A program made the translations under genes and the position numbers. Of a stretch of 64,000 nucleotides of DNA, positions 1 through 56,521 are shown piece by piece. Origin of the DNA: Candidatus Omnitrophota bacterium (GTDB lineage Bacteria; Omnitrophota; Gorgyraeia; Zapsychrales; Fredricksoniimonadaceae); the NCBI GenBank assembly GCA_903836515.1, contig CAILQW010000003.1, positions 33,529 through 97,528 on the forward strand, read 5' to 3'. Numbering within the stretch: position 1 is the stretch's first letter; each line of letters starts with the position of its first letter. Under the pieces are notes generated by a model. It searched no databases and had not been told where the DNA came from. It worked only from the letters and a program-made list of their open reading frames with translations.

Positions 1-228
1 GCACGCGCTGGGTCAGATCAGCCACCTGGGTCTGAATCGGACTCGACGCTGTTTTGGATGTCGTTGCACAACCGGAGAGAATCAAAGCAAACACCGCGAT
101 CATAAGGAACCGAATAGCCACGTGACCTGCCTCCCTTTATACGATTGAACACACAGGCCGCATGGCCTGTATTTGTCTTGAAAAGTAACTTAGTCTAGCA
201 AAAAGTCGGCTGAATGGGAAATTTATTT

Positions 229-262
229 ATAAAAAAAACAGGGGGCGAAACCGCCCCCTGAA
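229..262 (-). terminator. Rho-independent terminator downstream of the large exported protein gene
   Basis: GC hairpin cagggggcgaaaccgccccctg (~239-260), followed on the minus strand by a run of 8 T (plus-strand A-run 231-238). Confidence 0.6.
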
Positions 263-316
263 AAAACATGAAAAGGATTAAACGCACACAACACATCATG
301 GCTGTCCAAATTAAGC

Positions 317-374
317 GTAGGGGCCGACCTTGTGTCGGCCCGTTGCGCCGGGCGGACATAAAGTCCGCCCCTAC
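317..374. other. GC-rich nested stem-loop element in the 3' region of the large gene (possible REP-like element or small structured RNA)
   Basis: Outer stem gtaggg/ccctac encloses two hairpins (gccga..tcggc and gcggac ataaa gtccgc). It lies between the CDS stop (502) and the terminator (~240). Confidence 0.3.
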
Positions 375-501
375 ACCAAATTCATACCCCAAATAGCATT
401 GACCGACGACATATGCTGTCCCAATTGGACATATATGACAACACATGTTGTGTTACGGGAGGAAACCTGCCTACCGGCAGGCAGACAAGGTCCTCCCCTA
501 C

Positions 502-3500
502 TCAGCCACGATTCACGGCATCATCGGCATCGACCTTCGCCGGATCAAGCTGGCTGACCTGAAAATTATCATTGCCGCTATGCGCATCCAGACCCAACAA
601 CGGACGCAGGTTCACCGGCTGGGGACCGCCCACAGGTACCGGCACAATGCCACGCAGGTCTTTCTGCAGCTGCATGAGCTGGGCCGGATCGAACTGCGGC
701 ATGCCCGCCGCATCCGTGCCAACAACCTTAAGATAATCCCCCTGGCCCAGGTCGATACCACCCTTGACCTTCCCGGCATCATCAGCCGGGTTTGTAAGCC
801 CTTTTTTTTCTGCAATAGACTTTAGCTTAGGATCAATTGCTTGACTTAACGCCTCAGCCGCAAGCGTCTTTTGAACAACCTGAAAAAGATTTTCGTGTAT
901 AAGCTTCCAAGATTTCGTTCCCTTCTTCGCTTTTAACAATTCCTCTAATGTCCTTAAAAATACCGCCTGACTGTTACCGGACTTATTCTTCGAAACAACC
1001 TCCTCCAAAAGCGCTCGAACCCCTTCTGTACTGCTAAGCATCTGACCCAATTTTGTTCTTTCTTCCTTAGACATAACACTACGAATAATCACTTTTGTGA
1101 GACCCGTAGGATCAAACGTATCGCCTTCCTTCTTATCAACCGTCCCCGCCGCGTCGTAAGCCTTCAACAGCTCAACGACATCTGTAGGGGCAATGCCAGC
1201 CTTCTGAATCTGCTCGACCAGTGCTATCCTTGCAAGGAACAACTCTTTCAATCTTGCTCTCACCGCATCCCGAATAGCCGTAATTCGACCATAGTCAACA
1301 TTCTTTAAATATGAAAGCAACTCATCCAGATTTTGTGGTTTCAAACTATTAATATCTTCAACCATCCTATTAATATTTCCAACCATCTCCATAGTTTTTT
1401 CTGCCTGGTCCCACGCCGCCCTGACAACTTCTTTCTGTTTTAAAGGCAAATCGGAAAGCCTTAACAACGTCTCCAATATGGCTAGGGTAGGCGAAAAAAA
1501 ATGCAATCTGTCTTGAGCACGACCCTTTATATACGGATCATCATTAATCAAATAAGGCATCAAATCCGTCCACTTTGCTGCCGTTATCCCTTTAATTTCC
1601 CTTTGAATCTGCAAATAATGCTCCGGCGTCTCCGTTACTTCCGCCGCGTTATCTTTCACCAGTCTCGCGGCAATCCCTGCGAAATAGGGATCGACAGCCG
1701 TATTATTTGCTAAATCCTTCAATACACCCCAGGCTCCCATTTTCACTAAATCACCTAACGCCTGATTCCCTTTCACACGTAAAGAAACACTGCCTTCATT
1801 ACTGCTCAACACCTTATTTTTCGCTATCATTTGCTTGAAAAGATATATGGCACCCGCCAATGACGGGATGCCGGCAATAAACGCTTCAATTTTAAGTGTC
1901 AACGGCAAATAAATAGCCGTATCAGGCCCCCGCTCTAGACCGCTCGTCGCCGTATAATACCCGCCCCCCACAACAGCAACCGCCGCACCCGTTATAAATG
2001 CCAGTTTCCAAAGCTTTCGAACATTGTTTGAATTGATGACATCTACGGGAAGATTATCCTTATGAAATTGCTCCATATTCGCATCACTGGCTAACGCAAC
2101 CTTCTCCACCTGATCTGACGTTGACACAGCCTCTGCCTGATCTAATGACAAAAATAACCGAGCAACCACTATACCGTCAGGCGTTAAACGGTCTTTGATC
2201 CACATATCTGAAATCGTTCGGTTTGCACCGATTGTTTTAAGAATCCACAAGGCTCGAAATTGATCTATACGCGTGGCTCCGCCTTTCAACAACAGTCTTT
2301 TCGCGGCACTCTCGTAAAAAAGAAACAAAGAGGTGTAAATCGGGATCCCTACCCCCAGAACAGCAGATGCAACAATCGCACCATCTGGCACCGGAATATT
2401 AGTACCCACACTAAACATTGCCTCCCCCATTAAACTCGCCGCCCCTAACACCCAGGCCAAATACCCCAGGAACCCTGTCCTGAAACTTATTAACTTTGTC
2501 GTTACCCCTAAAGGACTACCCATCGCGACAAGAAGATCGCTCTTTGCCTCATCACTTAAGCCAGTGATACCACCGACTAACGTCTGTCCCATGTTGTCCG
2601 CCAATTGATCACGAACCTTGTCAACTTGCGTAAGAAAAAGTTTATAGGGTACAACAAGATATTTATCAAGATTCTTCTTAACCCCTCGCATTATTCTTGT
2701 CACAATGGGACGCATCATTTTCGCACAATCAAGACCGCCCGAGAAATACTTGCGGGGCAGGGTTTCCTGGGTGGTGCGGTCGAATTCTTCCTTCACATAG
2801 TTGTACACGCCCTTCTGATAGGCCTGCAGGTACTGCGCGTACACCTGGGCCTTGGCGTTCTTTTCCGCGATATCAATGCCCTCCACCTTGTTGGTGCCCG
2901 CATAGACCTGGTTCAACAGGCTGTTCTTCAAGGCATTCTTGTACCAGCCCGCGAGGATCAGGGAATGGAAGATCTGCCTCAAGGGGGCGAAATTCTTGCC
3001 TTCATTCACTTCTTTTTCAAGCACCGGCAGGATCACCTCCCGCACCACATCCCGCGCCAGTTCGACGGTCTGGGTATTATCCGCGTCCGTTACAGCGGCG
3101 GCAATCCCCTGCGCCGCATGATAATCCGCCTCCAGCATCACCTTCAGGTGCGCTTTGGTCACGAACGCATTGCCTTCGTGCTGATAGACTTCCGCCACAT
3201 CAGGTGTGATCCACACCTTATTGAAGGTGTCCACCGGAACTTGGGTATTACCGAACTTCGTATACACACGGCTGTAAATTTCATCCCAGAACTTGCGCCC
3301 CAGATCCTTTTCCGGGTACATGAGTGTGGAGGTGATCTGCTTGAGGATATAATCCTGGCCCAGCATGTCGCGCCCGGCATCGGTGTGGCTCAGCTGATCC
3401 GCCATGATCCGGTCTTTTTCGACCGGCGACAAGTTGACCCACAGCTCTTTCTCGGGTACCGCCAGCCCGGCCAGAAAATATTTGACGAGTTTGGTGGTCT

Positions 3501-3777
3501 CATCGGTCAAAGCCTGGCCCTTTAAATCCGAATTACCATTGTCCACAATGAAATCAAACAAAAGCGGGTCTTCAGGATGGATGGCCATGCCCTGCAGAAC
3601 AACCGGGGTGTAATTCCCGGACAGGCCGATCATCTCTCCCGGCTGGGGCAAATTGAACACCGCCTGGGCATAACTAGCCGGCACAAGGCTGGTCAGCATG
3701 AAGGCAGCCATGACGATCAGGCATAACGCCTTCCGGATAAATGATTTACAAGAGATCTCCATGCCTTGATCTACCAT
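502..3777 (-). CDS. large exported/membrane protein, function unknown (1091 aa from the ATG at 3777; the ORF track begins at a TTG at 3798)
   Basis: Single uninterrupted ORF. An AGGAGAG RBS sits 5 nt before the ATG at 3777. N-terminus MVDQGMEISCKSFIRKALCLIVMAAFMLTSLVPASYAQA resembles a signal peptide. Several predicted TM helices occur mid-protein and the C-terminal region is long and alpha-helical. No recognisable catalytic motif. The central ~830-2700 is AT-rich with distinct codon usage. Confidence 0.75.
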   Translation of the reverse strand: MVDQGMEISCKSFIRKALCLIVMAAFMLTSLVPASYAQAVFNLPQPGEMIGLSGNYTPVVLQGMAIHPEDPLLFDFIVDNGNSDLKGQALTDETTKLVKYFLAGLAVPEKELWVNLSPVEKDRIMADQLSHTDAGRDMLGQDYILKQITSTLMYPEKDLGRKFWDEIYSRVYTKFGNTQVPVDTFNKVWITPDVAEVYQHEGNAFVTKAHLKVMLEADYHAAQGIAAAVTDADNTQTVELARDVVREVILPVLEKEVNEGKNFAPLRQIFHSLILAGWYKNALKNSLLNQVYAGTNKVEGIDIAEKNAKAQVYAQYLQAYQKGVYNYVKEEFDRTTQETLPRKYFSGGLDCAKMMRPIVTRIMRGVKKNLDKYLVVPYKLFLTQVDKVRDQLADNMGQTLVGGITGLSDEAKSDLLVAMGSPLGVTTKLISFRTGFLGYLAWVLGAASLMGEAMFSVGTNIPVPDGAIVASAVLGVGIPIYTSLFLFYESAAKRLLLKGGATRIDQFRALWILKTIGANRTISDMWIKDRLTPDGIVVARLFLSLDQAEAVSTSDQVEKVALASDANMEQFHKDNLPVDVINSNNVRKLWKLAFITGAAVAVVGGGYYTATSGLERGPDTAIYLPLTLKIEAFIAGIPSLAGAIYLFKQMIAKNKVLSSNEGSVSLRVKGNQALGDLVKMGAWGVLKDLANNTAVDPYFAGIAARLVKDNAAEVTETPEHYLQIQREIKGITAAKWTDLMPYLINDDPYIKGRAQDRLHFFSPTLAILETLLRLSDLPLKQKEVVRAAWDQAEKTMEMVGNINRMVEDINSLKPQNLDELLSYLKNVDYGRITAIRDAVRARLKELFLARIALVEQIQKAGIAPTDVVELLKAYDAAGTVDKKEGDTFDPTGLTKVIIRSVMSKEERTKLGQMLSSTEGVRALLEEVVSKNKSGNSQAVFLRTLEELLKAKKGTKSWKLIHENLFQVVQKTLAAEALSQAIDPKLKSIAEKKGLTNPADDAGKVKGGIDLGQGDYLKVVGTDAAGMPQFDPAQLMQLQKDLRGIVPVPVGGPQPVNLRPLLGLDAHSGNDNFQVSQLDPAKVDADDAVNRG

Positions 3778-3842
3778 AACAACTCTCCTGTTCTGCAAGT
3801 TTCTTGTTATTTAGAATGTCAACGGATGTCTGACGATGCCAC

Positions 3843-3873
3843 AAATATATATTATAGATACCAGAAAGTCAAG
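3843..3873 (-). promoter_or_regulatory. putative sigma70-type promoter for the large exported protein gene
   Basis: On the minus strand: TTGACT, a 17-nt spacer, then TATATT, about 70-100 nt upstream of the ATG at 3777. Confidence 0.3.
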
Positions 3874-3904
3874 GGCAGGAGGGTTCCAATAGCAAAAGCC
3901 TGGC

Positions 3905-4258
3905 TCACGCCGCCACAGACGGCTTTTGGGAAGAAAGGAGCTGCGTCTTCCAGCTCATGAGGATGTTGAGGCTATGGCAATACCTTATCTGAAAAATGAA
4001 CCGGTTCTTTTTGATATAGATCACCCCCTTGACCTTGAAGACAAAGTGTTCTTGCTGGGCCGTAGTGTCAACCCGCTTCATCATGCGGATCTGCGGAGCC
4101 GGGAGCGCTGCCGGGAGGGCATCCACACGCGTAACAAGATAAATAAAATTTTTCACAACACGGCTATCGCAATCGTTTTCTGCGACTGTTTCCCCCACAG
4201 AAATGGCACGGCCGCGATAACGGGCAAGATCATGTTTGCGGTATGAAACCTGTTTCAT
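3905..4258 (-). CDS. small hypothetical protein (117 aa)
   Basis: Minus-strand ORF with a strong GAGGAG RBS 6 nt before the ATG. Preferred over the overlapping plus-strand ORF 3926..4246, which starts TTG and has no well-placed RBS. No recognisable domain. Confidence 0.5.
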   Translation of the reverse strand: MKQVSYRKHDLARYRGRAISVGETVAENDCDSRVVKNFIYLVTRVDALPAALPAPQIRMMKRVDTTAQQEHFVFKVKGVIYIKKNRFIFQIRYCHSLNILMSWKTQLLSSQKPSVAA

Positions 4259-4371
4259 GGTGTTCTCCTCTCAACTAATGTCTCAAGGATAACATCCGCT
4301 TTCCGCAGAAACAAGGCAGAGGCCCCGGTACCGGGAAAAGGTTTTCTCCAGACGGTAAAAGGCGAAAGGCT

Positions 4372-5022
4372 TCAGGAAGAACGGGGCTTGGAACGCCAGG
4401 GCAGGGGGACGCGCGGCTCCTGGCCGTTAAGAAGGCGGTGGATGTTGGGCCTGTGGCGCAGGACCACAAAGACACAAAAAAGGATGCTCAAAAGAACAAG
4501 GCTCAGGGGCGCGTTGAAAAAAACCATGAGGACCGGCAACAGCACGGCCGCCACCAGCGATGACAAAGAAACGATGGCGGTGATACCAAACGACACAAGC
4601 CAGCCCAGAACGCACAGACCCACGGCCGCGCGCGCTTCGGGGATCGCGATCGTGAACCCGATCAGGACGCCCAGCGTGGTAGCAATACCCTTCCCGCCCT
4701 TGAAATTCAGGAAACATGTCCAGTTATGCCCGCACACAGCAGCTAACGCCGCCGCCATGCGCCCCAGGGTGTAGGGCGCCAGAACCCCGGCCACCCCGGC
4801 CACGGCGATAATCCCTTTAATAATATCAATGATGAGCACCGCGGTCCCCGGCCCCTTGCCCAGGACACGGAAAGCATTGGTCGCGCCCACATTACCTGAA
4901 CCCTGCTGACGGATATCGATCCCTTTCAACACCCGTCCAAAAATATACGCGGTAGGGATGGACCCGATGAGATAACTCAAACTGAGGGTCGCGATAAATT
5001 TAACGGCTGTCATGGTGTCCAT
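4372..5022 (-). CDS. plsY: glycerol-3-phosphate acyltransferase PlsY
   Basis: SGNVGATNAFRVLG motif, multi-TM protein of 216 aa. A GGGAGG RBS sits 8 nt upstream. Neighbours pgsA. Confidence 0.9.
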   Translation of the reverse strand: MDTMTAVKFIATLSLSYLIGSIPTAYIFGRVLKGIDIRQQGSGNVGATNAFRVLGKGPGTAVLIIDIIKGIIAVAGVAGVLAPYTLGRMAAALAAVCGHNWTCFLNFKGGKGIATTLGVLIGFTIAIPEARAAVGLCVLGWLVSFGITAIVSLSSLVAAVLLPVLMVFFNAPLSLVLLSILFCVFVVLRHRPNIHRLLNGQEPRVPLPWRSKPRSS

Positions 5023-5572
5023 TATTAAGCCTCCCGATCCCTTCCTGCATATAGATGATGCCCGACACGATCGTCACCCCCAGCGCCACCCACCACAGCC
5101 ACAGCGCCATGGGCCATTGGAGAAAGACCGCCACCACGCAAACGGCCTGAAAGCAGGCGGTCATCTTGCCCCAGATGTTGGGCTTGATCTCAAGCGCCCC
5201 GGCATGAACCTGCAAAAGAAGCGCGCCCAGGACCAAGATCGCATCCCGCGCAATAAACGCCACCACCAGCCACAAGGGCAGCTGGACCGCCCACCCAAAG
5301 GCACTGCCCTGGCGATAAAGGCACAATAGCGCGCTGATAAAAAGCAATTTGTCAGCCAGCGGGTCCAGGATGGAACCGGCGCGTGTTTTCTGGCGATAAT
5401 GGCGTGCGATATAACCGTCGACCACATCCGATATCTCGGCCAGAAGGTAAACGGCAAAGGCCGCCCAGTGGAACTCCGGGCGTGCCGGCGTGGCGTAAAG
5501 CATCAGGGAAATAAAGAAGGGAACTGCAAGTATCCGCGCCAGGGTGATCTTGTTGGCCAGGGTCAATGCCAT
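5000..5572 (-). CDS. pgsA: CDP-diacylglycerol--glycerol-3-phosphate 3-phosphatidyltransferase
   Basis: CDP-alcohol phosphatidyltransferase motif DGYIAR...GSILDPLADK. About 190 aa, membrane protein. Confidence 0.88.
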   Translation of the reverse strand: MALTLANKITLARILAVPFFISLMLYATPARPEFHWAAFAVYLLAEISDVVDGYIARHYRQKTRAGSILDPLADKLLFISALLCLYRQGSAFGWAVQLPLWLVVAFIARDAILVLGALLLQVHAGALEIKPNIWGKMTACFQAVCVVAVFLQWPMALWLWWVALGVTIVSGIIYMQEGIGRLNNGHHDSR

Positions 5573-5574
5573 AG

Positions 5575-5835
5575 CTATTCCTCAACAGGGACAAGCCGGG
5601 CGCCCGTGCCTGGTTCAAATTCAATCGCACCGCTGTAATGGCGGCCTGTTACGGGCGAATATTTCTCGACAGGGCTCCGCGAGGGGGCCATGGCGCCCAC
5701 AATCTTCTTCGCCGCATCGATCTGCGCGGGGATTGTTTCTGTCCGGCCCGGTAAGGCTGCGTTGCGGCCCGCGGCGCATCCGGGCAGGAGCAGGCATAAC
5801 AAAAGGACAAGAGCAGCGTTTCTCATCTGATCCAT
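5575..5835 (-). CDS. small lipoprotein, hypothetical
   Basis: N-terminal signal with lipobox LLLPGC. 86 aa. Confidence 0.55.
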   Translation of the reverse strand: MDQMRNAALVLLLCLLLPGCAAGRNAALPGRTETIPAQIDAAKKIVGAMAPSRSPVEKYSPVTGRHYSGAIEFEPGTGARLVPVEE

Positions 5836-6413
5836 TTGAGACGGTTCAAGGGCCAGAAAATAACTTCCGCCTTGCCGACCACCAGTTCCTCGGGCACAAA
5901 CCCCCAGTAACGGCTGTCGTGGCTGGAGGCACTGTTATCCCCCATGACAAAATACTGGCCTGGCGGCACGGTGATCTTCTGGCCTGTCTTGGCATAATCG
6001 CCATAGTTGTAATAATGGATCCTGGCCATCGCCCCCTCGGCCACAGGCTTGTCATTGATATACACCACACCGTCCCTGATCTCCACGGTCTCGCCGCCGA
6101 CAGCAATGAGGCGCTTGATGAAATCCTTGTTGCGCTGGACCGGATATTTGAACACCAGGACATCGCCCCGGTGCGGGCGCGTAAAGCCCGGCAGGCGGTA
6201 CGTGGTCCACGGAAGAAGCGCCCCGTAGGCAAGCTTGTTCACAAAAAGCCGGTCGCCCTCCACGAGCGTCATGCGCATGGACCCCGAGGGGATCTTGAAG
6301 GGCTGGATCAAAAACGTGCGGATGGCCATGGCAAGCACGAATGCCACCACCAAAGATTCGGCCCATTCCCACGCGATTTTCTTATTGTTATCGGAAAACA
6401 GTTTGTCCAACAT
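5823..6413 (-). CDS. lepB: signal peptidase I
   Basis: Motifs GSMRMTL, GDNSASSHDSRYWGFVPEELVVGKA. Start chosen at MLDKLF..., which has an AGGAG RBS 8 nt upstream. The ORF track extends to 6626 but that overlaps lepA. Confidence 0.88.
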   Translation of the reverse strand: MLDKLFSDNNKKIAWEWAESLVVAFVLAMAIRTFLIQPFKIPSGSMRMTLVEGDRLFVNKLAYGALLPWTTYRLPGFTRPHRGDVLVFKYPVQRNKDFIKRLIAVGGETVEIRDGVVYINDKPVAEGAMARIHYYNYGDYAKTGQKITVPPGQYFVMGDNSASSHDSRYWGFVPEELVVGKAEVIFWPLNRLKWIR

Positions 6414-6433
6414 GTCAACTCCTGTCATTCGGA

Positions 6434-8224
6434 TTAAATTTTTAACGCCGCCAGGAACGCGGCCTGGGGAACTTCCACACGGCCGATCGATTTCATCTTC
6501 TTCTTGCCTTCCTTCTGCTTCTCCCAAAGTTTGCGCTTGCGCGAAATATCGCCGCCGTAACACTTGGCCGTGACATTCTTGCCCATGGACTTGATGCGCG
6601 AAGAGGCAATGACGCGCCCGTCGCACGTGGCCTGGATGCGGATCTCAAAGAGCTGGGCCGGGATGAGTTCCTTCAGCTTCTCGCAGAGCGCCGCCCCCTT
6701 TTCATACGCGCGGTCCTTGTGCACCAGGCACGCGAAAGCGTCGCAAGCTTCGTCGTTGATGAGGATATCGAGCTTGGCGATGGGCGCGGGCTTGTACCCG
6801 GTAAATTCGTAGTCGATCGACCCGTACCCGCGGGTGGCCGACTTGACCATGTCGTTAAAATCCACGATCACCTCCGCCAGCGGAATATCGTAAATGATGC
6901 GCATGCGGTCGGAGATGTACTCGCTCTTGATAAAAATACCGCGTTTGCGTTTGGCCAGTTCCATCACCGCGTCCATGGTGGTGACAGGGGTCATGACGGC
7001 GACCTTGAGATAAGGCTCCTCAACGGACTTAACATCGCTGGAACCCGGCAGCTGGGAGGGGTTCTCGATGTCGGTCATGACGCCGCTTTTGGTCACATAA
7101 CGGTACCCGACATTGGGTGTTGTCAACACAAGGCTCAGGTTATACTCGCGCTCCAGGCGCTCCTGCACCACTTCCATGTGCAAAAGGCCCAGAAAACCGC
7201 AGCGGAACCCGTGGCCGAAGGACTGGGATGTTTCAGGCTCGTAGGTGAAGCTGGGGTCGCTCAGGCGCAGTTTGTCGATGGCTTCGCGCAGTTCCATATA
7301 CTGGTCGGCCGTGACAGGATAGACCCCGCAAAAAACAAGAGGCTTGAGCAGACGGTACCCCTCCAGCGGCGCCTCACAAGGATTGGCCGCATCGGTGACC
7401 GTGTCGCCCACGCGCACTTCCTTGGGATCGCGCACATTGCAGGTGATATAACCGACCTCGCCCGCCCCAAAGCCCTTGGTCTTCACGTCAAAGGGGGTGA
7501 AATACCCCATCCCCTCGACCGTGTACTCACGGTTCATGTGCATAAGCCGGATGCGCGTCCCGATGCCGAGTTTGCCGTCGATGACGCGGATAAAAATGAT
7601 GATACCCTTGTAGACATCGTATTTCATGTCAAAAATGAGCGCCTTGAGCGGCCGGGCCTCCTCGCCGTAAGGCGCGGGAATAAACGCCACGATCTTCTCA
7701 AGGAGCTCGCCGATGAAAAGGCCCTCTTTCGCCGAAACCTTCTGGATGTCCTCTTCCCGGAACCCGAGCACCTCCTTGAACTGGCGCACGGCTTCATTCA
7801 GGTCGATGTTGGCGATGTCGATCTTGTTGATGACCGGCAGGATCTCGAGGTTGTTGTTGATGGCCAGGTAATAGTTCGCCACCGTCTGAGACTCGACCCC
7901 CTGCGACGCGTCGATGATGAGCAAAGCGCCCTCGCAGGCCTTGAGGGATTTCTCAACCTCGTAGGTGAAATCCACATGCCCAGGGGTATCGATGAGATTG
8001 AAAAGATACTCCTGGCCGTCTTTGGCCTTGTAGGTGAGGCGCACAGCCGATGCCTTGATGGTGATGCCGCGCTCGCGCTCCAGGTCCATGTCGTCCAAAA
8101 GCTGGTTCTTGAAACTGCGCTCGTCGATAGCGCCGCAGGAAAGCATGAGCCGGTCGGCAAGTGTGGACTTGCCGTGGTCAATGTGGGCGATGATGGAAAA
8201 ATTACGGATGCGTGACTGGTCCAT
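6434..8224 (-). CDS. lepA: elongation factor 4 (LepA)
   Basis: N-terminus MDQSRIRNFSIIAHIDHGKSTLADRL with GTPase motifs. 596 aa. Confidence 0.95.
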   Translation of the reverse strand: MDQSRIRNFSIIAHIDHGKSTLADRLMLSCGAIDERSFKNQLLDDMDLERERGITIKASAVRLTYKAKDGQEYLFNLIDTPGHVDFTYEVEKSLKACEGALLIIDASQGVESQTVANYYLAINNNLEILPVINKIDIANIDLNEAVRQFKEVLGFREEDIQKVSAKEGLFIGELLEKIVAFIPAPYGEEARPLKALIFDMKYDVYKGIIIFIRVIDGKLGIGTRIRLMHMNREYTVEGMGYFTPFDVKTKGFGAGEVGYITCNVRDPKEVRVGDTVTDAANPCEAPLEGYRLLKPLVFCGVYPVTADQYMELREAIDKLRLSDPSFTYEPETSQSFGHGFRCGFLGLLHMEVVQERLEREYNLSLVLTTPNVGYRYVTKSGVMTDIENPSQLPGSSDVKSVEEPYLKVAVMTPVTTMDAVMELAKRKRGIFIKSEYISDRMRIIYDIPLAEVIVDFNDMVKSATRGYGSIDYEFTGYKPAPIAKLDILINDEACDAFACLVHKDRAYEKGAALCEKLKELIPAQLFEIRIQATCDGRVIASSRIKSMGKNVTAKCYGGDISRKRKLWEKQKEGKKKMKSIGRVEVPQAAFLAALKI

Positions 8225-36392: not shown

Positions 36393-37148
36393 TTAAGCAA
36401 TGTTCTTGATAATGGCCGCGAAAGAATCCGCCTTCAGGCTCGCTCCGCCGACCAGCGCGCCGTCAATATCCGGCTGGGACATGAGTTCCGCCGCATTTTC
36501 AGGCTTCACGCTGCCGCCGTACTGGATCCTCAGGGCATCGGCCGTTGCCTGGTCGAAAAGTTTGGCGACTATACCGCGTATAAACTTGTGCACTTCCTGG
36601 GCCTGGGCCGCTGTGGCGGTCTTCCCCGTGCCAATGGCCCATACAGGTTCATAGGCAATGACCACCGTATTCATATCTTCCTTGCCAAGACCCGCGAGCG
36701 AACCTGTCACATGGTCTTTGACCACATCAAAGGTCTTCCCCGCTTCGCGCTCGGCCAGGTTTTCGCCGACGCATACGATCGGCTTGAGCCCGTAGCTGAA
36801 GGCGGCCTTAAGGCGGCGGTTAACGGTCGCATTGGTCTCGCCGAAGAACTGACGCCGCTCGGAATGCCCGATGATGACATATTCCGCGCCTGCGGCCTTG
36901 ATCATGGGACCGGAAATTTCACCCGTAAACGCCCCCTCCGCTTCCCAAAAAAGATTCTGCGCCCCCAGCGCAATCCCTGAACCCGCCAGGACCCGGGAGA
37001 CTTCCGTCAGGCTCACAAACGGAGGGCAGACCACCGCATCGACCGCCGTCTGTCCGCCAAGCGCCTTCTTCAGACCATCCACCAGCGCCACCGCTTCCGC
37101 CGGAGTCTTGTACATTTTCCAGTTGCCCGCAATGATCTTCTTACGCAT
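36393..37148 (-). CDS. tpiA: triosephosphate isomerase
   Basis: Motifs [31 protein letters not shown]. An alternative ATG lies at 37166. Confidence 0.9.
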
Positions 37149-37169
37149 AAAACCCGCTTTCGTCATAAT

Positions 37170-38387
37170 TTAACGGCAGCCGCAGCAGCAGCCGGAAGCC
37201 TTTTTCTTGTCGTTGAGCGCCGTGATCCCCGGGAGTTCTTTGCCTTCAAGGTACTCGAGCGCCGCGCCGCCGCCCGTGGAAATATGCGTCATTTTGTCAT
37301 CCAGTCCGAACTTGGAAACCGCGGCCGCCGAATCGCCGCCGCCGATGATCGTCTTCACACCCTTGTCCTTGAGAGACGCCAGATGAAGCGCGATCTCCTT
37401 GGTCCCGTTCTCGAACGCCGCCCGCTCGAACACGCCCAGCGGACCGTTCCAGATGACCGTCCTGGCGCCCGAAAGGATGGTCTTGAACTTGGCGCGGGTC
37501 TTGGGCCCGATATCGAGCGACTCAAACCCGTCGGGGATGACATCGGAAATCCTGGCATCGTCAGAATCGAAATTCGGAACGATCACAAAATCCTCGGTCA
37601 TTTCGATCCGGACACCCGCGGCCTTGGCCTTGGCCAGGATCTCTGCCGCGAGGCCGATCCTGTCTTTTTCAAGCTTGGAATTCCCGATATTGATCCCGCG
37701 CGCCTTGAGGAACGTGTACGCCATCCCTCCGCCGATCAAAATGGTGTCGGCCTTCTTGAGAAGGTTCTCGATCAGGAGGATCTTGTCGGAAACTTTCTTG
37801 CCGCCAAGAATAACGACAAAGGGACGCTCGGGGTCATTGATAGCCTTGCCGAGGTACTCGATCTCTTTCTCGATCAGAAAACCGCTCACGGCGGGAAGAT
37901 ACGCCGCGAGGCCCGCGGTCGAGGCATGCGCGCGGTGCGCGGTGCCGAAAGCGTCATTGACATAAATATCCGCCAGGGACGCGAGCTCCTTGGCAAACAC
38001 AGGATCGTTCTTTTCTTCCTCTTTATGGAACCTGAGATTCTCGAGCAAAATGACCTTGGCCGGAGCCGCGCCCGCTTCCTTCCTGACCGCTTCGCCCACG
38101 CAGTCGGAAAGAAGTGTCACCGGCTGGCCCAAAAGTTCGGCCAGGCGCTTTGCCGCCGGCGCGAGCGAAAATTCTTTTTCAAAACCGGTACCGGCCGGGC
38201 GCCCGAGATGGCTCATCAGGATCACCCTGGAGGCACCATGCTCAATGACATATTTAATGGTCGGAACGGCCGCGCGGATACGGATATCGTCGGTGATCCT
38301 TTCGCCGTCCAGGGGAACATTGAAATCTACGCGGATAATGACCCTTTTGCCCTTCAGGTCAACATCACGCACGGTCATTTTGTTCAT
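37170..38387 (-). CDS. pgk: phosphoglycerate kinase
   Basis: Start [27 protein letters not shown] with a GGAGG RBS. Motifs ILMSHLGRP and GGGMAYTFL present. Unusual C-terminal tail [12 protein letters not shown]. Confidence 0.9.
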
Positions 38388-38501
38388 AACAGCCTCCGGG
38401 AACAATAACGGTTAAAAAACTTTTTTCCATCCCGGCCCTGATCCAGGCGCGGTAGGAAGGAATTTAAAATTTTAAGTATTATATATAGGGAAACAGGTTT
38501 G

Positions 38502-55412: not shown

Positions 55413-56521
55413 CAACCTTTCTTCATCTGATGCCGATTCCGGCTCATCCGCCCCATGGCACGCTCGAATTCTTTCATGAACTGCATCATGACCGGCTTGG
55501 GCCCCAGGGTAAGCCGGACACAATTTTCCACAGGAAATTCGAATGACCCCCTGATATAGATCTTCTTTTTCTTGAGCGCCTCGAGCAATTCATGCGTTTC
55601 TTGCGTGTCACGTAAAAAGATCAACATCCCGTTGGAGAAATTACCGCCGGACCAGCGGATACCCAGCTGCGAGAGCCTGTGCTGGACATAATCTTTCCCC
55701 TGCTTGAGGCCTTTAACATATTGCCGCATCAGCCCGGCGTGCTTCAACATGTATTCCCCCACAGCCATGGAAAGCGCATTACATTCGACAAGCGAGCGTG
55801 TTTTGGAAAGATACTCAATATTATCCTTCGAGCTGATCATATACCCCAAACGCACACCCGCCAGGCCAAACGCCTTGGAAAATGTCTGAAAAATAATGAT
55901 ATTGTCATACGCATGAAGCAACGGCAGGGCGCTCTCTGCCCCGAAAAAAGCATACGCTTCATCCACCACAAGAAAAGCATCGCACGCCCGGCATTTATCG
56001 GCGATCCGGCGGATATCGGCAAGGCCGAAGACACTCTCAATGGGCAGATTGGGATTGGGCAGACAAACCAGGACCGTACGCTCGTTGATGGCATCACAGA
56101 TAGACTGCACGTCCAGCGCAAGGTCCTTGTTGAAGGCCACTTCCCGGATCTTGGCCTGATAAATCTGCGCATAGATCCTGTACATGGGATAGGTGGGCTG
56201 AAGCATGACCACCTCATCCCCGGGTGAAACAAGCGTCTCAAAAATAATGCGGATCCCTTCGGTGATCGCATTGGTCACATAAAGCTGTTCCACAGGAACT
56301 TTCACCCATCGGGACAAAGCCGCATAAAAACGGTCCGTATCCGGATAGGCGTTCAAAAGATATGCGGGCAAAAGTTTGTGCAGGTCCTGCATGACCTTTT
56401 TGGGAAATTCGGTAACGCGTTCATTCCTGTCCAGGCGCAGGCCTTCCTTCAAATTCCGCCCGACGGATGTCCTTTTTCTCTCGATAGCGGCCAAATGGCC
56501 CTTGAATCTTCGTTTGATCAT
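55412..56521 (-). CDS. class I/II PLP-dependent enzyme, HisC/CobD-like (aminotransferase or decarboxylase)
   Basis: Motifs LRLDRNE (cf. HisC LSSNENP) and FQTFSKAFGLAGVRLGY (PLP-lysine region). 369 aa. Confidence 0.8.
   Translation of the reverse strand: MIKRRFKGHLAAIERKRTSVGRNLKEGLRLDRNERVTEFPKKVMQDLHKLLPAYLLNAYPDTDRFYAALSRWVKVPVEQLYVTNAITEGIRIIFETLVSPGDEVVMLQPTYPMYRIYAQIYQAKIREVAFNKDLALDVQSICDAINERTVLVCLPNPNLPIESVFGLADIRRIADKCRACDAFLVVDEAYAFFGAESALPLLHAYDNIIIFQTFSKAFGLAGVRLGYMISSKDNIEYLSKTRSLVECNALSMAVGEYMLKHAGLMRQYVKGLKQGKDYVQHRLSQLGIRWSGGNFSNGMLIFLRDTQETHELLEALKKKKIYIRGSFEFPVENCVRLTLGPKPVMMQFMKEFERAMGRMSRNRHQMKKG

What the first reader, a model, noticed from the sequence alone, without database searches (positions are those of the whole stretch)
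502..3777. Compositionally mosaic 1091-aa exported/membrane protein with an AT-rich central 1.9 kb and different codon usage
Within one uninterrupted ORF, the N-terminal ~345 codons (about 2750-3777) and the last ~100 codons (502-~820) have host-like GC (~55-60%, GC-rich third positions). The central ~640 codons (about 830-2700) are markedly AT-rich and use AAG/AAA, TTA/CTT, GAA-type codons. An in-frame, stop-free AT-rich block of this length is unlikely to be noise. It suggests a horizontally acquired or recombined central module (TM segments plus a long helical region) grafted into a resident gene, as seen for variable surface proteins and phage-receptor-type proteins. Its function is unknown.
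Basis: seen in the sequence. Interest (0 to 1): 0.55.

Follow-up and report, generated by a model that had tools for sequence, protein, structure and literature searches.

The report
Swappable cargo between two conserved ends
The AT-rich middle of this gene is a replaceable cargo cassette held between two strictly conserved end domains. Those ends define a very large, unnamed family of signal-peptide-bearing proteins in the poorly known phylum Omnitrophota, and a sister strain carries largely different cargo in the same gene.

Summary
In ORF 3777-502 (minus strand, 1091 aa), GC3 is about 0.70 in codons 1-348, 0.44 in codons 349-1003 and about 0.63 at the end. Background codon preferences applied to the middle's own amino acids predict 0.70. 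No 200-codon window in 39 neighbouring genes falls below 0.555.

The steps coincide with domain boundaries. The ends are a signal peptide plus a roughly 310-aa N-domain (ending PRKYFSGG) and a roughly 60-aa C-domain (GGIDL...PLLGL). The N-domain defines an unannotated family of at least 8,000 clusters, seen here almost only in Omnitrophota. Members carry unrelated middles: PGM, PGI, PGK, ankyrin, TPR, or orphan sequence as here.

A sister strain shares the flanks, N-domain and C-domain at 93-94% nucleotide identity. Most of its middle is non-homologous, apart from one fast-evolving island.

N-domain DNA has unusually low synonymous divergence and a mosaic history against another family copy, which points to recombination through the conserved ends.

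Family-wide, middles have lower GC3 than neighbouring genes (median -0.07, p=4e-8).

No donor was found, and biochemical function is unknown. The best guess is an exported carrier that anchors or delivers variable cargo. No fold or family match exists.

The parts
3844..3872 (-). Promoter-like site (TTGACT-17-TATATT) upstream of the gene
   Evidence: Consensus scan, 10 of 12 matches. Only 1 mismatch with the sister strain across window 3923-3774. This is a consensus match only and function is not shown.
3784..3789 (-). Shine-Dalgarno AGGAGA, 6 nt upstream of the ATG at 3777
   Evidence: Read directly from the sequence printed.
3667..3777 (-). Signal peptide (aa 1-37): basic n-region, hydrophobic core ALCLIVMAAFMLTSLV, then PASYA|QA
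   Evidence: Kyte-Doolittle peak of 2.13 at aa 17-35. The ..YAQ motif is conserved in the family consensus. Cleavage is inferred from sequence features; no SignalP was available.
2734..3666 (-). Conserved N-domain (aa 38-348, ending LPRKYFSGG), with genome-like GC3 of about 0.70
   Evidence: 50 invariant columns across 47 homologues. 8048 representative clusters match it, always at the protein N-terminus. AF2 pLDDT is 75, up to 95 locally, with a mixed alpha/beta fold and no PDB or BFVD match. dS against the sister strain is 0.119, vs 0.27-0.37 in flanking genes.
2698..2733 (-). Left junction: identity with the sister-strain allele decays within about 25-35 nt after the FSGGLD codons, and GC3 steps down here
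   Evidence: blastn breakpoint at window 2698, junction alignment and GC3 profile.
2116..2697 (-). Cargo module A (aa about 361-554): linker plus first pair of hydrophobic helices (aa 436-456, 466-488). It is absent from the sister strain and distantly related (about 35% identity) to the same region of P0003/P0004
   Evidence: No blastn match in L001, which has only 135 nt here. BLASTP and phmmer against P0003. Helices come from AF2 secondary structure and hydropathy.
1641..2115 (-). Cargo module B, the 'island' (aa about 555-712): second pair of hydrophobic helices (aa 588-610, 625-648). It is shared with the sister strain at 81% nt and 65% aa identity
   Evidence: blastn and BLASTP. dS 0.329, similar to the flanks, but dN/dS 0.585.
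771..1640 (-). Cargo module C (aa about 713-1003): orphan all-alpha region, replaced by 1.6 kb of unrelated sequence in the sister strain
   Evidence: No blastn or BLASTP match in L001. No match among 199 family proteins or 80 genome loci. AF2 predicts all helices at low confidence, with only insignificant alpha-solenoid resemblance.
589..762 (-). Conserved C-domain (aa 1006-1063: GGIDLGQGDYLKVVGTDAAGMPQFDPAQLMQLQKDLRGIVPVPVGGPQPVNLRPLLGL). GC3 returns to about 0.63
   Evidence: Identity with the sister strain resumes exactly at the GGTGGTATCGAC codons. A C-domain HMM finds one copy at the extreme C-terminus of family genes, and the domain was never seen uncoupled from an N-domain gene.
502..588 (-). 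Variable acidic tail (aa 1064-1091) and stop codon
   Evidence: Sequence. The tail after LLGL varies across the family.
239..260 (-). Intrinsic-terminator-like hairpin (CAGGGGGCGGTTTCGCCCCCTG followed by T8) ending the transcription unit
   Evidence: Consensus scan: 9-bp stem, 8 GC pairs.

Best explanation
The gene belongs to a very large, un-annotated protein family seen here almost only in Omnitrophota. Its architecture is Sec-type signal peptide, conserved ~310-aa N-domain, unrelated variable cargo, then a conserved ~60-aa C-terminal domain.

The compositional mosaic exists because the two end domains and the cargo have different evolutionary regimes.

- The ends are shared by many copies per genome. 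They recombine with one another by gene conversion, stay at genome-like GC3 and serve as homology arms.
- The cargo is a cassette made of sub-modules. It is replaced or reshuffled between those arms and otherwise evolves quickly under weak constraint, so it sits about 0.25 lower in GC3.

In this allele the cargo is an orphan all-alpha segment with two pairs of hydrophobic helices.

What is shown:
- the architecture;
- strict N/C coupling;
- cassette replacement between sister strains, with breakpoints at the GC3 steps;
- mosaic history and low dS of the N-domain;
- a family-wide AT shift of cargos.

What is inferred:
- The protein is exported by Sec.
- It is held in a membrane by the two helical hairpins, with the N-domain, most of the cargo and the C-domain on the non-cytoplasmic side.
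- The N- and C-domains act together as sorting, anchoring or delivery modules for whatever cargo lies between them, in a phylum of putatively host-dependent nanobacteria.
For: Composition step. It is real and codon-based.

Family.
- More than 3385 hits cover only about 31% of the query, namely the N-domain. Their other parts carry PGM, PGI, hexokinase, enolase, PGK, adenylate kinase, methyltransferase, ankyrin, HEAT, TPR and REC domains.
- 8048 clusters at 50% identity match the N-domain, always at the protein N-terminus, in proteins of 376-4199 aa.
- At least 583 copies occur in GTDB species genomes. Nearly all are Omnitrophota MAGs, with several per genome and frequent tandem arrays.

C-domain.
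- The GGI[DN] motif lies within the last 140 aa in 59 of 69 complete genes.
- The HMM finds one copy per gene at the extreme C-terminus. Every hit is either in an N-domain ORF or in an ORF truncated by the locus edge or a frameshift.

Cassette replacement.
- The syntenic sister-strain locus L001 is 93-98% identical in the flanks, N-domain and C-domain.
- Its centre is non-homologous apart from one 81% island, and the junctions are sharp.

Recombination in the ends.
- N-domain dS is 0.119 vs 0.27-0.37 in neighbouring genes. Synonymous codon differences are 26 of 350 vs 94 of 526, Fisher p=8e-6.
- Against another family copy, P0005, N-domain dS is 0.32 in codons 88-215 (dN=0) but 1.3-2.3 in adjacent segments.

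Weak constraint on cargo. The island has dN/dS of 0.585, vs 0.04-0.15 elsewhere.

Generality.
- Cargo GC3 minus flanking-gene GC3 has a median of -0.07 (Wilcoxon p=4e-8, n=60). N-domain minus flank is not significant.
- L001 and P0005 show the same profile.

Not a chimera. Independent assemblies are identical across both junctions.
Against: - No source for this cargo was found, so the direction and mechanism of replacement (another family copy, another strain or another species) are unknown.
- One protein search did not even return the query's own protein. Negative results from that tool are therefore weak.
- The -0.25 GC3 drop here is much larger than the family median of -0.07. Weak constraint alone may not explain it.
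- Whether P0005 lies in the same genome as the query is unknown. The mosaic dS shows recombination among N-domain copies, but not strictly intragenomic conversion.
- The functional part has no direct support:
  - No fold or family match exists for either end domain.
  - No conserved partner gene was seen within +/-8 kb.
  - The N-C contact could not be inspected.
  - A crude count of hydrophobic segments gave no clear even-number rule.
- ATP-dependent cytosolic enzymes placed behind a signal peptide are hard to rationalise if the proteins stay in the periplasm.
Confidence: 0.72

Rival explanations
1. The central 1.9 kb was acquired horizontally from an AT-richer donor, such as a lower-GC Omnitrophota lineage or a mobile element. 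It still carries the donor's codon usage because amelioration is slow. The conserved ends only provided the integration site.
For: GC1/GC2/GC3 of the middle (about 0.51/0.38/0.44) and its higher Lys-to-Arg ratio look like a sequence equilibrated in a roughly 45% GC genome. Omnitrophota genomes in the sample span flank GC3 of 0.29-0.74, so suitable donors exist. Cargos with recognisable enzymes, such as PGK in L062, can be just as AT-shifted, which argues against decay being the only cause. Most of the cargo differs between sister strains.
Against: No donor or close relative was found in 5.8 billion proteins, JGI metagenomes or 80 family loci. The island has flank-like dS, so at least that AT-rich module predates the strain split. 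Cargos are AT-shifted even in low-GC genomes (mean -0.046), where import from a common pool should raise GC3. There are no mobility genes, tRNA or repeats at the junctions, and the junctions lie inside the reading frame.
Confidence: 0.3
2. There was no import. The contrast arises in place. Unique cargo evolves under relaxed or diversifying selection and accumulates AT-biased mutations. The multi-copy ends undergo frequent gene conversion, which is GC-biased and keeps their GC3 high.
For: The AT shift of cargos is family-wide and significant. In low-GC genomes the N-domain's GC3 exceeds that of neighbouring genes (+0.063), as expected for GC-biased conversion. The N-domain has low dS and a mosaic history. 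The island's dN/dS is 0.585. Strongly shifted cargos are more often orphans, 5 of 8 vs 1 of 5.
Against: Relaxed protein-level constraint does not by itself change synonymous-site equilibrium. A 0.25 drop is large. In this genome the N-domain equals the background rather than exceeding it, so the anomaly is in the cargo. Most of the cargo is non-alignable at a flank dS of about 0.3, which requires replacement rather than point-mutational drift.
Confidence: 0.35
3. The gene is a polymorphic toxin or effector locus of a known type (Rhs/CDI-like, or T9SS/T5SS cargo), in which a conserved trafficking domain carries exchangeable toxic tips.
For: It has a signal peptide, a conserved N-terminal domain, exchangeable downstream sequence, many copies per genome and strain-level variation.
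Against: The extreme C-terminus is conserved rather than variable. No toxin, Rhs/YD, haemagglutinin, autotransporter barrel or T9SS CTD model matches. There is no small immunity-like gene downstream; a terminator and a conserved PG_binding_1 gene follow. Cargos are housekeeping-type enzymes and repeat scaffolds.
Confidence: 0.07
4. The mosaic is an assembly or binning artefact that joined two family genes through their conserved ends.
For: Multi-copy conserved ends are exactly where short-read assemblers create chimeras. The source is a MAG.
Against: An independent JGI metagenome contig is 100% identical over window 1-3330, spanning both junctions. Identical full-length proteins are present on at least 9 contigs from NCBI, JGI and ENA. 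The sister-strain allele has the same intact architecture.
Confidence: 0.02

Closest known systems
Cassette-type variable surface proteins (e.g. Borrelia VlsE, Neisseria PilE/pilS), cited from general knowledge
   Same: Conserved N- and C-terminal parts flank a central region that is replaced by recombination using the conserved parts as homology. Alleles differ between close strains.
   Different: Here the exchanged segments are non-homologous modules (enzymes, repeats, orphan helices), not variants of one sequence. No silent cassette array is present in the 64-kb window. Both ends are large folded domains shared by thousands of family members.
Modular effector and polymorphic-toxin families with a conserved trafficking head and swappable tail (oomycete CRN effectors, PMC5289972; Rhs/CDI toxins, from general knowledge)
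   Same: A secretion signal plus a conserved N-terminal domain, followed after a conserved junction motif (here PRKYFSGG) by highly diverse downstream domains. The families are large and recombining.
   Different: A second conserved domain closes the C-terminus. There are no toxin domains or immunity genes. Cargos include complete glycolytic and sugar-metabolism enzymes.
Two-signal bacterial cargo sorting (T9SS C-terminal domain cargo; sortase or exosortase substrates), from general knowledge
   Same: An N-terminal Sec signal combined with a short conserved C-terminal domain or tag on otherwise unrelated proteins.
   Different: There is no sequence match to those tags. No TM-plus-basic tail or LPXTG/PEP motif is present. 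An additional 310-aa conserved N-domain is obligatory. No dedicated sorting gene was seen nearby.
Omnitrophota giant proteins ('Archaeovorins' and other proteins above 10 kaa; bioRxiv 10.1101/2023.11.21.568195 and 10.64898/2026.06.07.730766)
   Same: Same phylum. They have a signal peptide and/or TM helices combined with 'cytoplasmic-type' domains (PGM, starch synthase, methyltransferase, NUDIX, REC, HEAT/TPR), and are proposed to have an extracytoplasmic or host-directed role.
   Different: Those papers classify proteins by size and by C39 peptidase, SecA-like and dockerin content. Term searches within them returned no passage describing this family. This protein is 1091 aa and lacks those domains.

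Membership tests
Unnamed Omnitrophota N-domain/C-domain family (defined here) | Signal peptide followed by the ~310-aa N-domain, with invariant WVNLSPxE, QDYxLKQ, FNKVWI, ExEVNxG..F..LRQ and KYF.GG motifs | tested here: met
   The query carries all 50 invariant columns of alignment A1. Identity to members is 49-99%.
Unnamed Omnitrophota N-domain/C-domain family (defined here) | A single ~60-aa C-domain (GGIDL...P...LLG) at the extreme C-terminus | tested here: met
   Query aa 1006-1063. Family survey.
Unnamed Omnitrophota N-domain/C-domain family (defined here) | Non-homologous, variable-length sequence between the two domains | tested here: met
   Hits cover only about 31% of the query. Middles range from about 250 to more than 3800 aa with unrelated Pfam content.
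Horizontally transferred (xenologous) segment | Composition and codon usage atypical for the host genome | tested here: met
   GC3 of 0.443 vs 0.699 +/- 0.052 in the background.
Horizontally transferred (xenologous) segment | Identifiable donor lineage or phylogenetic incongruence | tested here: inconclusive
   No relatives of the middle were found beyond sub-modules in P0002 and P0003/4. The search tool missed known matches.
Horizontally transferred (xenologous) segment | Mobility signatures at the borders (integrase, tRNA, direct repeats) | tested here: not met
   The borders lie inside the reading frame at domain boundaries, and no such genes are adjacent.
Polymorphic toxin systems (Rhs/CDI-type) | Variable C-terminal toxin tip followed by a cognate immunity gene | tested here: not met
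   The C-terminus is conserved. Downstream are a terminator and a conserved PG_binding_1 gene. There are no toxin Pfam hits.
T9SS cargo | C-terminal Por_Secre_tail-type beta-sandwich CTD recognised by Pfam or NCBIfam models | tested here: not met
   No hit at E<=1 in Pfam or NCBIfam. The modelled C-domain has one strand and one helix.
Type V autotransporters (classical or inverse) | A 12-16-strand beta-barrel translocator at one terminus | tested here: not met
   The N-domain model is mixed alpha/beta, with three hairpins and long helices. No barrel and no Pfam autotransporter hit.
Omnitrophota giant proteins (Archaeovorin or dockerin type) | Length above 10 kaa with C39 peptidase, SecA DEAD-like or dockerin/TSP3 domains | tested here: not met
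   1091 aa with none of these domains.
Anti-phage defence or phage proteins | Match to PADLOC or PHROGs models | tested here: not met
   No families at E<=0.1. No BFVD fold match.

The most novel reading that the evidence does not exclude
The obligatory pairing of a ~310-aa N-domain (behind a Sec signal) with a ~60-aa C-terminal domain marks a previously unrecognised, phylum-wide cargo system of Omnitrophota. It would be a sorting, display or host-delivery pathway that carries arbitrary passengers, including whole glycolytic and sugar-metabolism enzymes, kinases, ankyrin/TPR/HEAT scaffolds and membrane-hairpin modules, out of the cytoplasm of these host-dependent nanobacteria. Cargo cassettes would be shuffled between family copies and strains through the conserved ends.
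Probability: 0.25. Interest if true: 0.85.

Novelty: new variant of a known kind. Interest (0 to 1): 0.68.

Why it matters
**Method.** A within-gene GC3 step, read from raw sequence, located the domain boundaries and recombination breakpoints of a modular gene to within about 50 nt. This makes it a cheap detector for cassette-bearing genes.

**Biology.**
- It exposes a family of at least 8,000 clusters at 50% identity, with several copies per genome. The family has no Pfam, NCBIfam, PDB or BFVD match, and the literature searches run here found no description of it.
- The phylum has no cultured representative, and its members are thought to live on or off other cells.
- Ordinary cytoplasmic enzymes sit between a signal peptide-linked domain and a conserved C-terminal domain. 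This is unexpected.
- If the ends are a carrier system, the family would give a direct handle on how Omnitrophota interact with hosts or prey. It would also supply a ready-made list of their cargo.

**Evolution.** Low dS and mosaic history in the conserved ends, and fast, AT-drifting cargo between them, make this a clean natural example of how recombination arms and payload diverge in composition.

Tried and rejected
- **Family and sequence-to-structure searches of the whole protein.** Pfam, NCBIfam, PADLOC, PHROGs and PDB sequence searches (single sequence and profile) gave only noise.
- **Searches for relatives of the middle.** The whole middle returned only itself. The distal 281 aa returned nothing, not even its own protein, so that negative result is unreliable. 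The metagenome scan found only an identical copy. tblastn and phmmer against 80 loci and 199 family proteins found only P0002 and P0003 sub-modules.
- **Other copies or silent cassettes in the window.** None were found.
- **Even-number rule for hydrophobic helices between the N- and C-domains,** which would place both ends on the same side of the membrane. My hydropathy counter is too crude and the result depends on the threshold.
- **Conserved neighbour genes around 79 family loci.** The only recurrent clusters were antisense artefacts of the N-domain and generic two-component proteins.
- **Literature.** Three keyword searches, motif-string searches and three Omnitrophota papers gave no description of this family.
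- **Rejected explanations.** These were amino-acid bias, assembly chimera, polymorphic toxin, T9SS or autotransporter membership (see the membership tests), and the antisense ORF 2605-3525(+) as a real gene. That ORF lies entirely in the high-GC3 N-domain and is the usual shadow ORF.


Full report
**1. The observation**

The ORF is real. It occupies 502..3798 on the minus strand. The ATG at 3777 is preceded by AGGAGA and gives 1091 aa, the length of the database protein P0001.

GC3 in 60-codon windows:
- Codons 1-345: 0.62-0.88.
- Codons about 346-1000: 0.37-0.55.
- Last 90 codons: 0.62-0.65.
- GC2 is flat and GC1 falls only slightly.

The 39 other long genes of the window all lie on the minus strand and have GC3 of 0.59-0.79.

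The shift is one of codon choice. Background codon preferences applied to the middle's own amino acids predict a GC3 of 0.702, and the observed value is 0.443. Of 400 background 200-codon windows (mean 0.699, sd 0.052), none is below 0.555, whereas every window in the middle is 0.425-0.470.

**2. What the three segments are**

A protein search returned more than 3385 hits, and nearly all cover only about 31% of the query, namely the first 345 residues.

*N-domain.*
- An alignment of 47 homologues shows an exceptionally conserved domain with 50 invariant columns, ending in PRKYFSGG.
- It follows a classical signal sequence: a basic n-region, a hydrophobic core with a hydropathy peak of 2.13, and PASYA|QA.
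- An exhaustive HMMER scan of 1.84 billion representatives found 8048 clusters, 6192 of them at E<=1e-30. The domain is always at the protein N-terminus, in proteins of 376-4199 aa.
Nearly all are in Omnitrophota MAGs, with a few labelled Planctomycetales or Elusimicrobia. Several occur per genome and they are often in tandem.

*C-domain.*
- The last about 85 residues contain a second conserved element: GGIDL..., then FDP or KRDG.G.PLP, then G..PVI..I.P...LLGL.
- 59 of 69 complete genes have it within the last 140 aa. Most exceptions contain runs of N or are truncated.
- An HMM of this element finds exactly one copy per gene at the extreme C-terminus.
- All 83 hits in the fetched loci are either in an N-domain ORF (67) or in an ORF cut by the locus start or by a frameshift after an N-domain ORF. 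The two ends are therefore strictly coupled.

*Middles.*
- Between the ends lies unrelated sequence. Examples are phosphoglucomutase, PGI, PGK, hexokinase, enolase, adenylate kinase, starch synthase, NUDIX, methyltransferases, PLP enzymes, response-regulator, ankyrin, HEAT, TPR and LysM domains, or nothing recognisable.
- The query's middle is an orphan. It has two pairs of hydrophobic helices (aa 436-456 and 466-488; aa 588-610 and 625-648), followed by about 350 aa of low-confidence helices.

*Annotation status.*
- Neither end domain has any Pfam, NCBIfam, PADLOC, PHROGs or PDB-sequence match.
- The N-domain model (pLDDT 75; three beta-hairpins plus long helices) has no PDB or BFVD fold match.
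- Motif strings and keyword searches found no description of the family. Term searches within the two papers on Omnitrophota giant proteins returned no passage on it.

**3. The GC3 steps are recombination breakpoints**

Protein P0002 (93% identical, but over only 36% of the query) comes from a 7.7-kb contig, L001. Its gene order is the same as at the query's locus: pgsA, plsY, a 117-aa ORF, this gene, then a PG_binding_1 gene.

DNA comparison of the window with L001:

| Window | L001 | Result |
|---|---|---|
| 6173-2698 (flanks and N-domain) | 1-3476 | 93.2% identity |
| 770-501 (C-domain) | 5686-5955 | 94.4% identity |
| 237-1 (downstream) | 6154-6390 | 97.9% identity |
| 2697-771 (centre, 1927 bp) | 3477-5685 (2209 bp) | not alignable, apart from the island |
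| 2115-1641 (the island within the centre) | 3612-4086 | 80.8% identity |

The junction alignments are sharp. Identity is perfect through the FSGGLD codons and decays within about 25-35 nt. It resumes exactly at GGTGGTATCGAC, which encodes GGID.

The sister allele shows the same GC3 profile: 0.7 at the N end, 0.45 in the middle and 0.7 at the C end. So does the related protein P0005 at another locus.

The middle is itself modular:
- Module A (aa about 361-554) is missing from the sister strain but distantly resembles P0003 and P0004.
- Module B, the island, is shared with the sister strain.
- Module C (aa about 713-1003) has no relative anywhere that I could search.

An assembly chimera is excluded. 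An independent JGI contig is 100% identical over window 1-3330, and identical proteins sit on at least 9 other contigs.

**4. Different evolutionary regimes in ends and cargo**

Nei-Gojobori estimates between the two strains:

| Region | dS | dN/dS |
|---|---|---|
| N-domain | 0.119 | 0.04 |
| C-domain | 0.216 | 0.07 |
| plsY, pgsA, orf117 | 0.27-0.37 | 0.04-0.15 |
| Island | 0.329 | 0.585 |

- The N-domain has far fewer synonymous differences than its neighbours: 26 of 350 codons vs 94 of 526, Fisher p=8e-6.
- Against P0005, the N-domain's dS is 0.32 over codons 88-215 with no amino-acid change, but 1.3-2.3 in adjacent segments.
- Together these indicate gene conversion or recombination among N-domain copies. 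This would both homogenise the ends and provide arms for exchanging what lies between them.
- The island's flank-like dS but high dN/dS shows that at least this cargo module was inherited since the strain split and evolves under weak or diversifying constraint.
- The non-alignable remainder cannot be explained by point substitution at a dS of about 0.3. It must have been replaced.

**5. Why the cargo is AT-rich**

This step is inferred rather than shown.

- Across 60 complete family genes with usable flanks, cargo GC3 is lower than that of neighbouring genes (median -0.07, Wilcoxon p=4e-8). The N-domain equals the neighbours.
- 11 of 60 show drops of at least 0.12. The query, at -0.25, is an extreme case.
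- In low-GC genomes the cargo is still slightly lower than the flanks (-0.046), while the N-domain is higher (+0.063).
- That pattern fits in-situ processes better than import from a common pool. The in-situ processes would be AT-biased mutation in weakly constrained unique cargo, and GC-biased conversion in the multi-copy ends.
- In favour of import from an AT-richer Omnitrophota lineage are the size of the drop here, the Lys/Arg shift and the equally AT-shifted PGK cargo of L062.
- I regard the two explanations as complementary and unresolved.

**6. How it probably works**

This is inference. The unit looks monocistronic, with a promoter-like site at 3872-3844, an SD sequence and a strong terminator at 260-239.

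- The signal peptide predicts Sec export.
- With two helical hairpins, the N-domain, most of the cargo and the C-domain would all lie on the non-cytoplasmic side, tethered to a membrane.
- At a stringent hydropathy cut-off, about half or more of the family members have no hydrophobic segment in the cargo (92 of 202 at threshold 1.4; 138 of 202 at 1.6). These would be fully soluble exported proteins.
- The strict N/C coupling and the indifference to cargo identity suggest that the ends are carrier modules for sorting, anchoring, display or delivery.
- Such a role would fit the host-dependent or predatory lifestyle proposed for Omnitrophota. It would also fit reports that their giant proteins combine signal peptides and TM helices with 'cytoplasmic-type' domains.
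- There is no direct evidence. No partner genes are conserved nearby, and the N-C contact could not be examined.

**7. Comparison with known systems and verdict**

- The closest analogies are cassette-type variable surface proteins, modular effector or polymorphic-toxin families, and two-signal cargo sorting such as T9SS.
- Membership of each of these was tested and not met: the C-terminus is conserved, there are no toxin or immunity genes, and there is no CTD or barrel.
- The mechanism of variation is a known kind. The family, its two end domains and its cargo spectrum have no match in the domain, structure and literature resources searched here.
- I rate the finding as a new variant of a known kind, with interest of about 0.68.
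- I give about a one-in-four chance that it marks a genuinely new cargo export or display system.

Noticed in passing
window 285-500: The 216 bp immediately after the stop codon have no counterpart in sister strain L001, which instead has about 145 bp of its own with a called 76-aa ORF. The window segment contains several GC-rich hairpins (e.g. GGGGCGGACTTTATGTCCGCCC, GGCCGACACAAGGTCGGCC). Homology resumes just before the terminator at 260-239.
   Followed up: partly
window 1-64000: Essentially every long ORF in the 64-kb window is on the minus strand (about 45 consecutive genes). The only plus-strand ORFs in the non-overlapping set were 5544-6437 and 55679-56227, and the first looks like a shadow ORF. 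This is an unusually long co-directional run.
   Followed up: no
window 2605-3525 (+) and 2697-3209 (+): Long antisense ORFs (306 and 170 aa) lie exactly under the high-GC3 N-domain and stop where GC3 drops. The equivalent antisense ORFs formed the largest 'neighbour' cluster across 44 family loci, so they are shadow ORFs rather than genes.
   Followed up: yes
window 36393-38405 (-): Stand-alone tpiA-like (36393-37166) and pgk-like (37170-38405) genes are present in this genome. Family members in other Omnitrophota carry a complete PGK as cargo (P0092; L062:401-4018). Enzyme cargos therefore appear to be extra copies rather than the housekeeping enzyme.
   Followed up: partly
L039, L049, L051 (also L013, L016, L017, L037, L075): Family genes often sit in head-to-tail tandem arrays of two or three, each with its own N-domain, different cargo and C-domain. 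This arrangement would favour unequal exchange.
   Followed up: partly
loci with flank GC3 below 0.45 (e.g. L007, L025, L049, L058, L079, L080): In low-GC Omnitrophota the N-domain's GC3 (0.42-0.52) is clearly higher than that of neighbouring genes (0.31-0.39). The N-domain seems to resist the genome's AT drift. GC-biased gene conversion or nucleotide-level constraint could explain this, but neither was tested.
   Followed up: partly
window 5724-5873 and 4074-4223: Two local hot spots of divergence from the sister strain (28 and 26 mismatches per 150 nt, vs 4-20 elsewhere in the flanks). One falls in the small ORF region between pgsA and lepB, the other in the conserved 117-aa ORF upstream of the gene.
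   Followed up: no
tool behaviour: The word-indexed protein search with the middle alone missed P0002, which BLASTP aligns at 65% identity over 178 aa. With the distal 281 aa it did not return even the query's own protein. Negative results from that tool for this compositionally unusual segment are therefore weak.
   Followed up: yes
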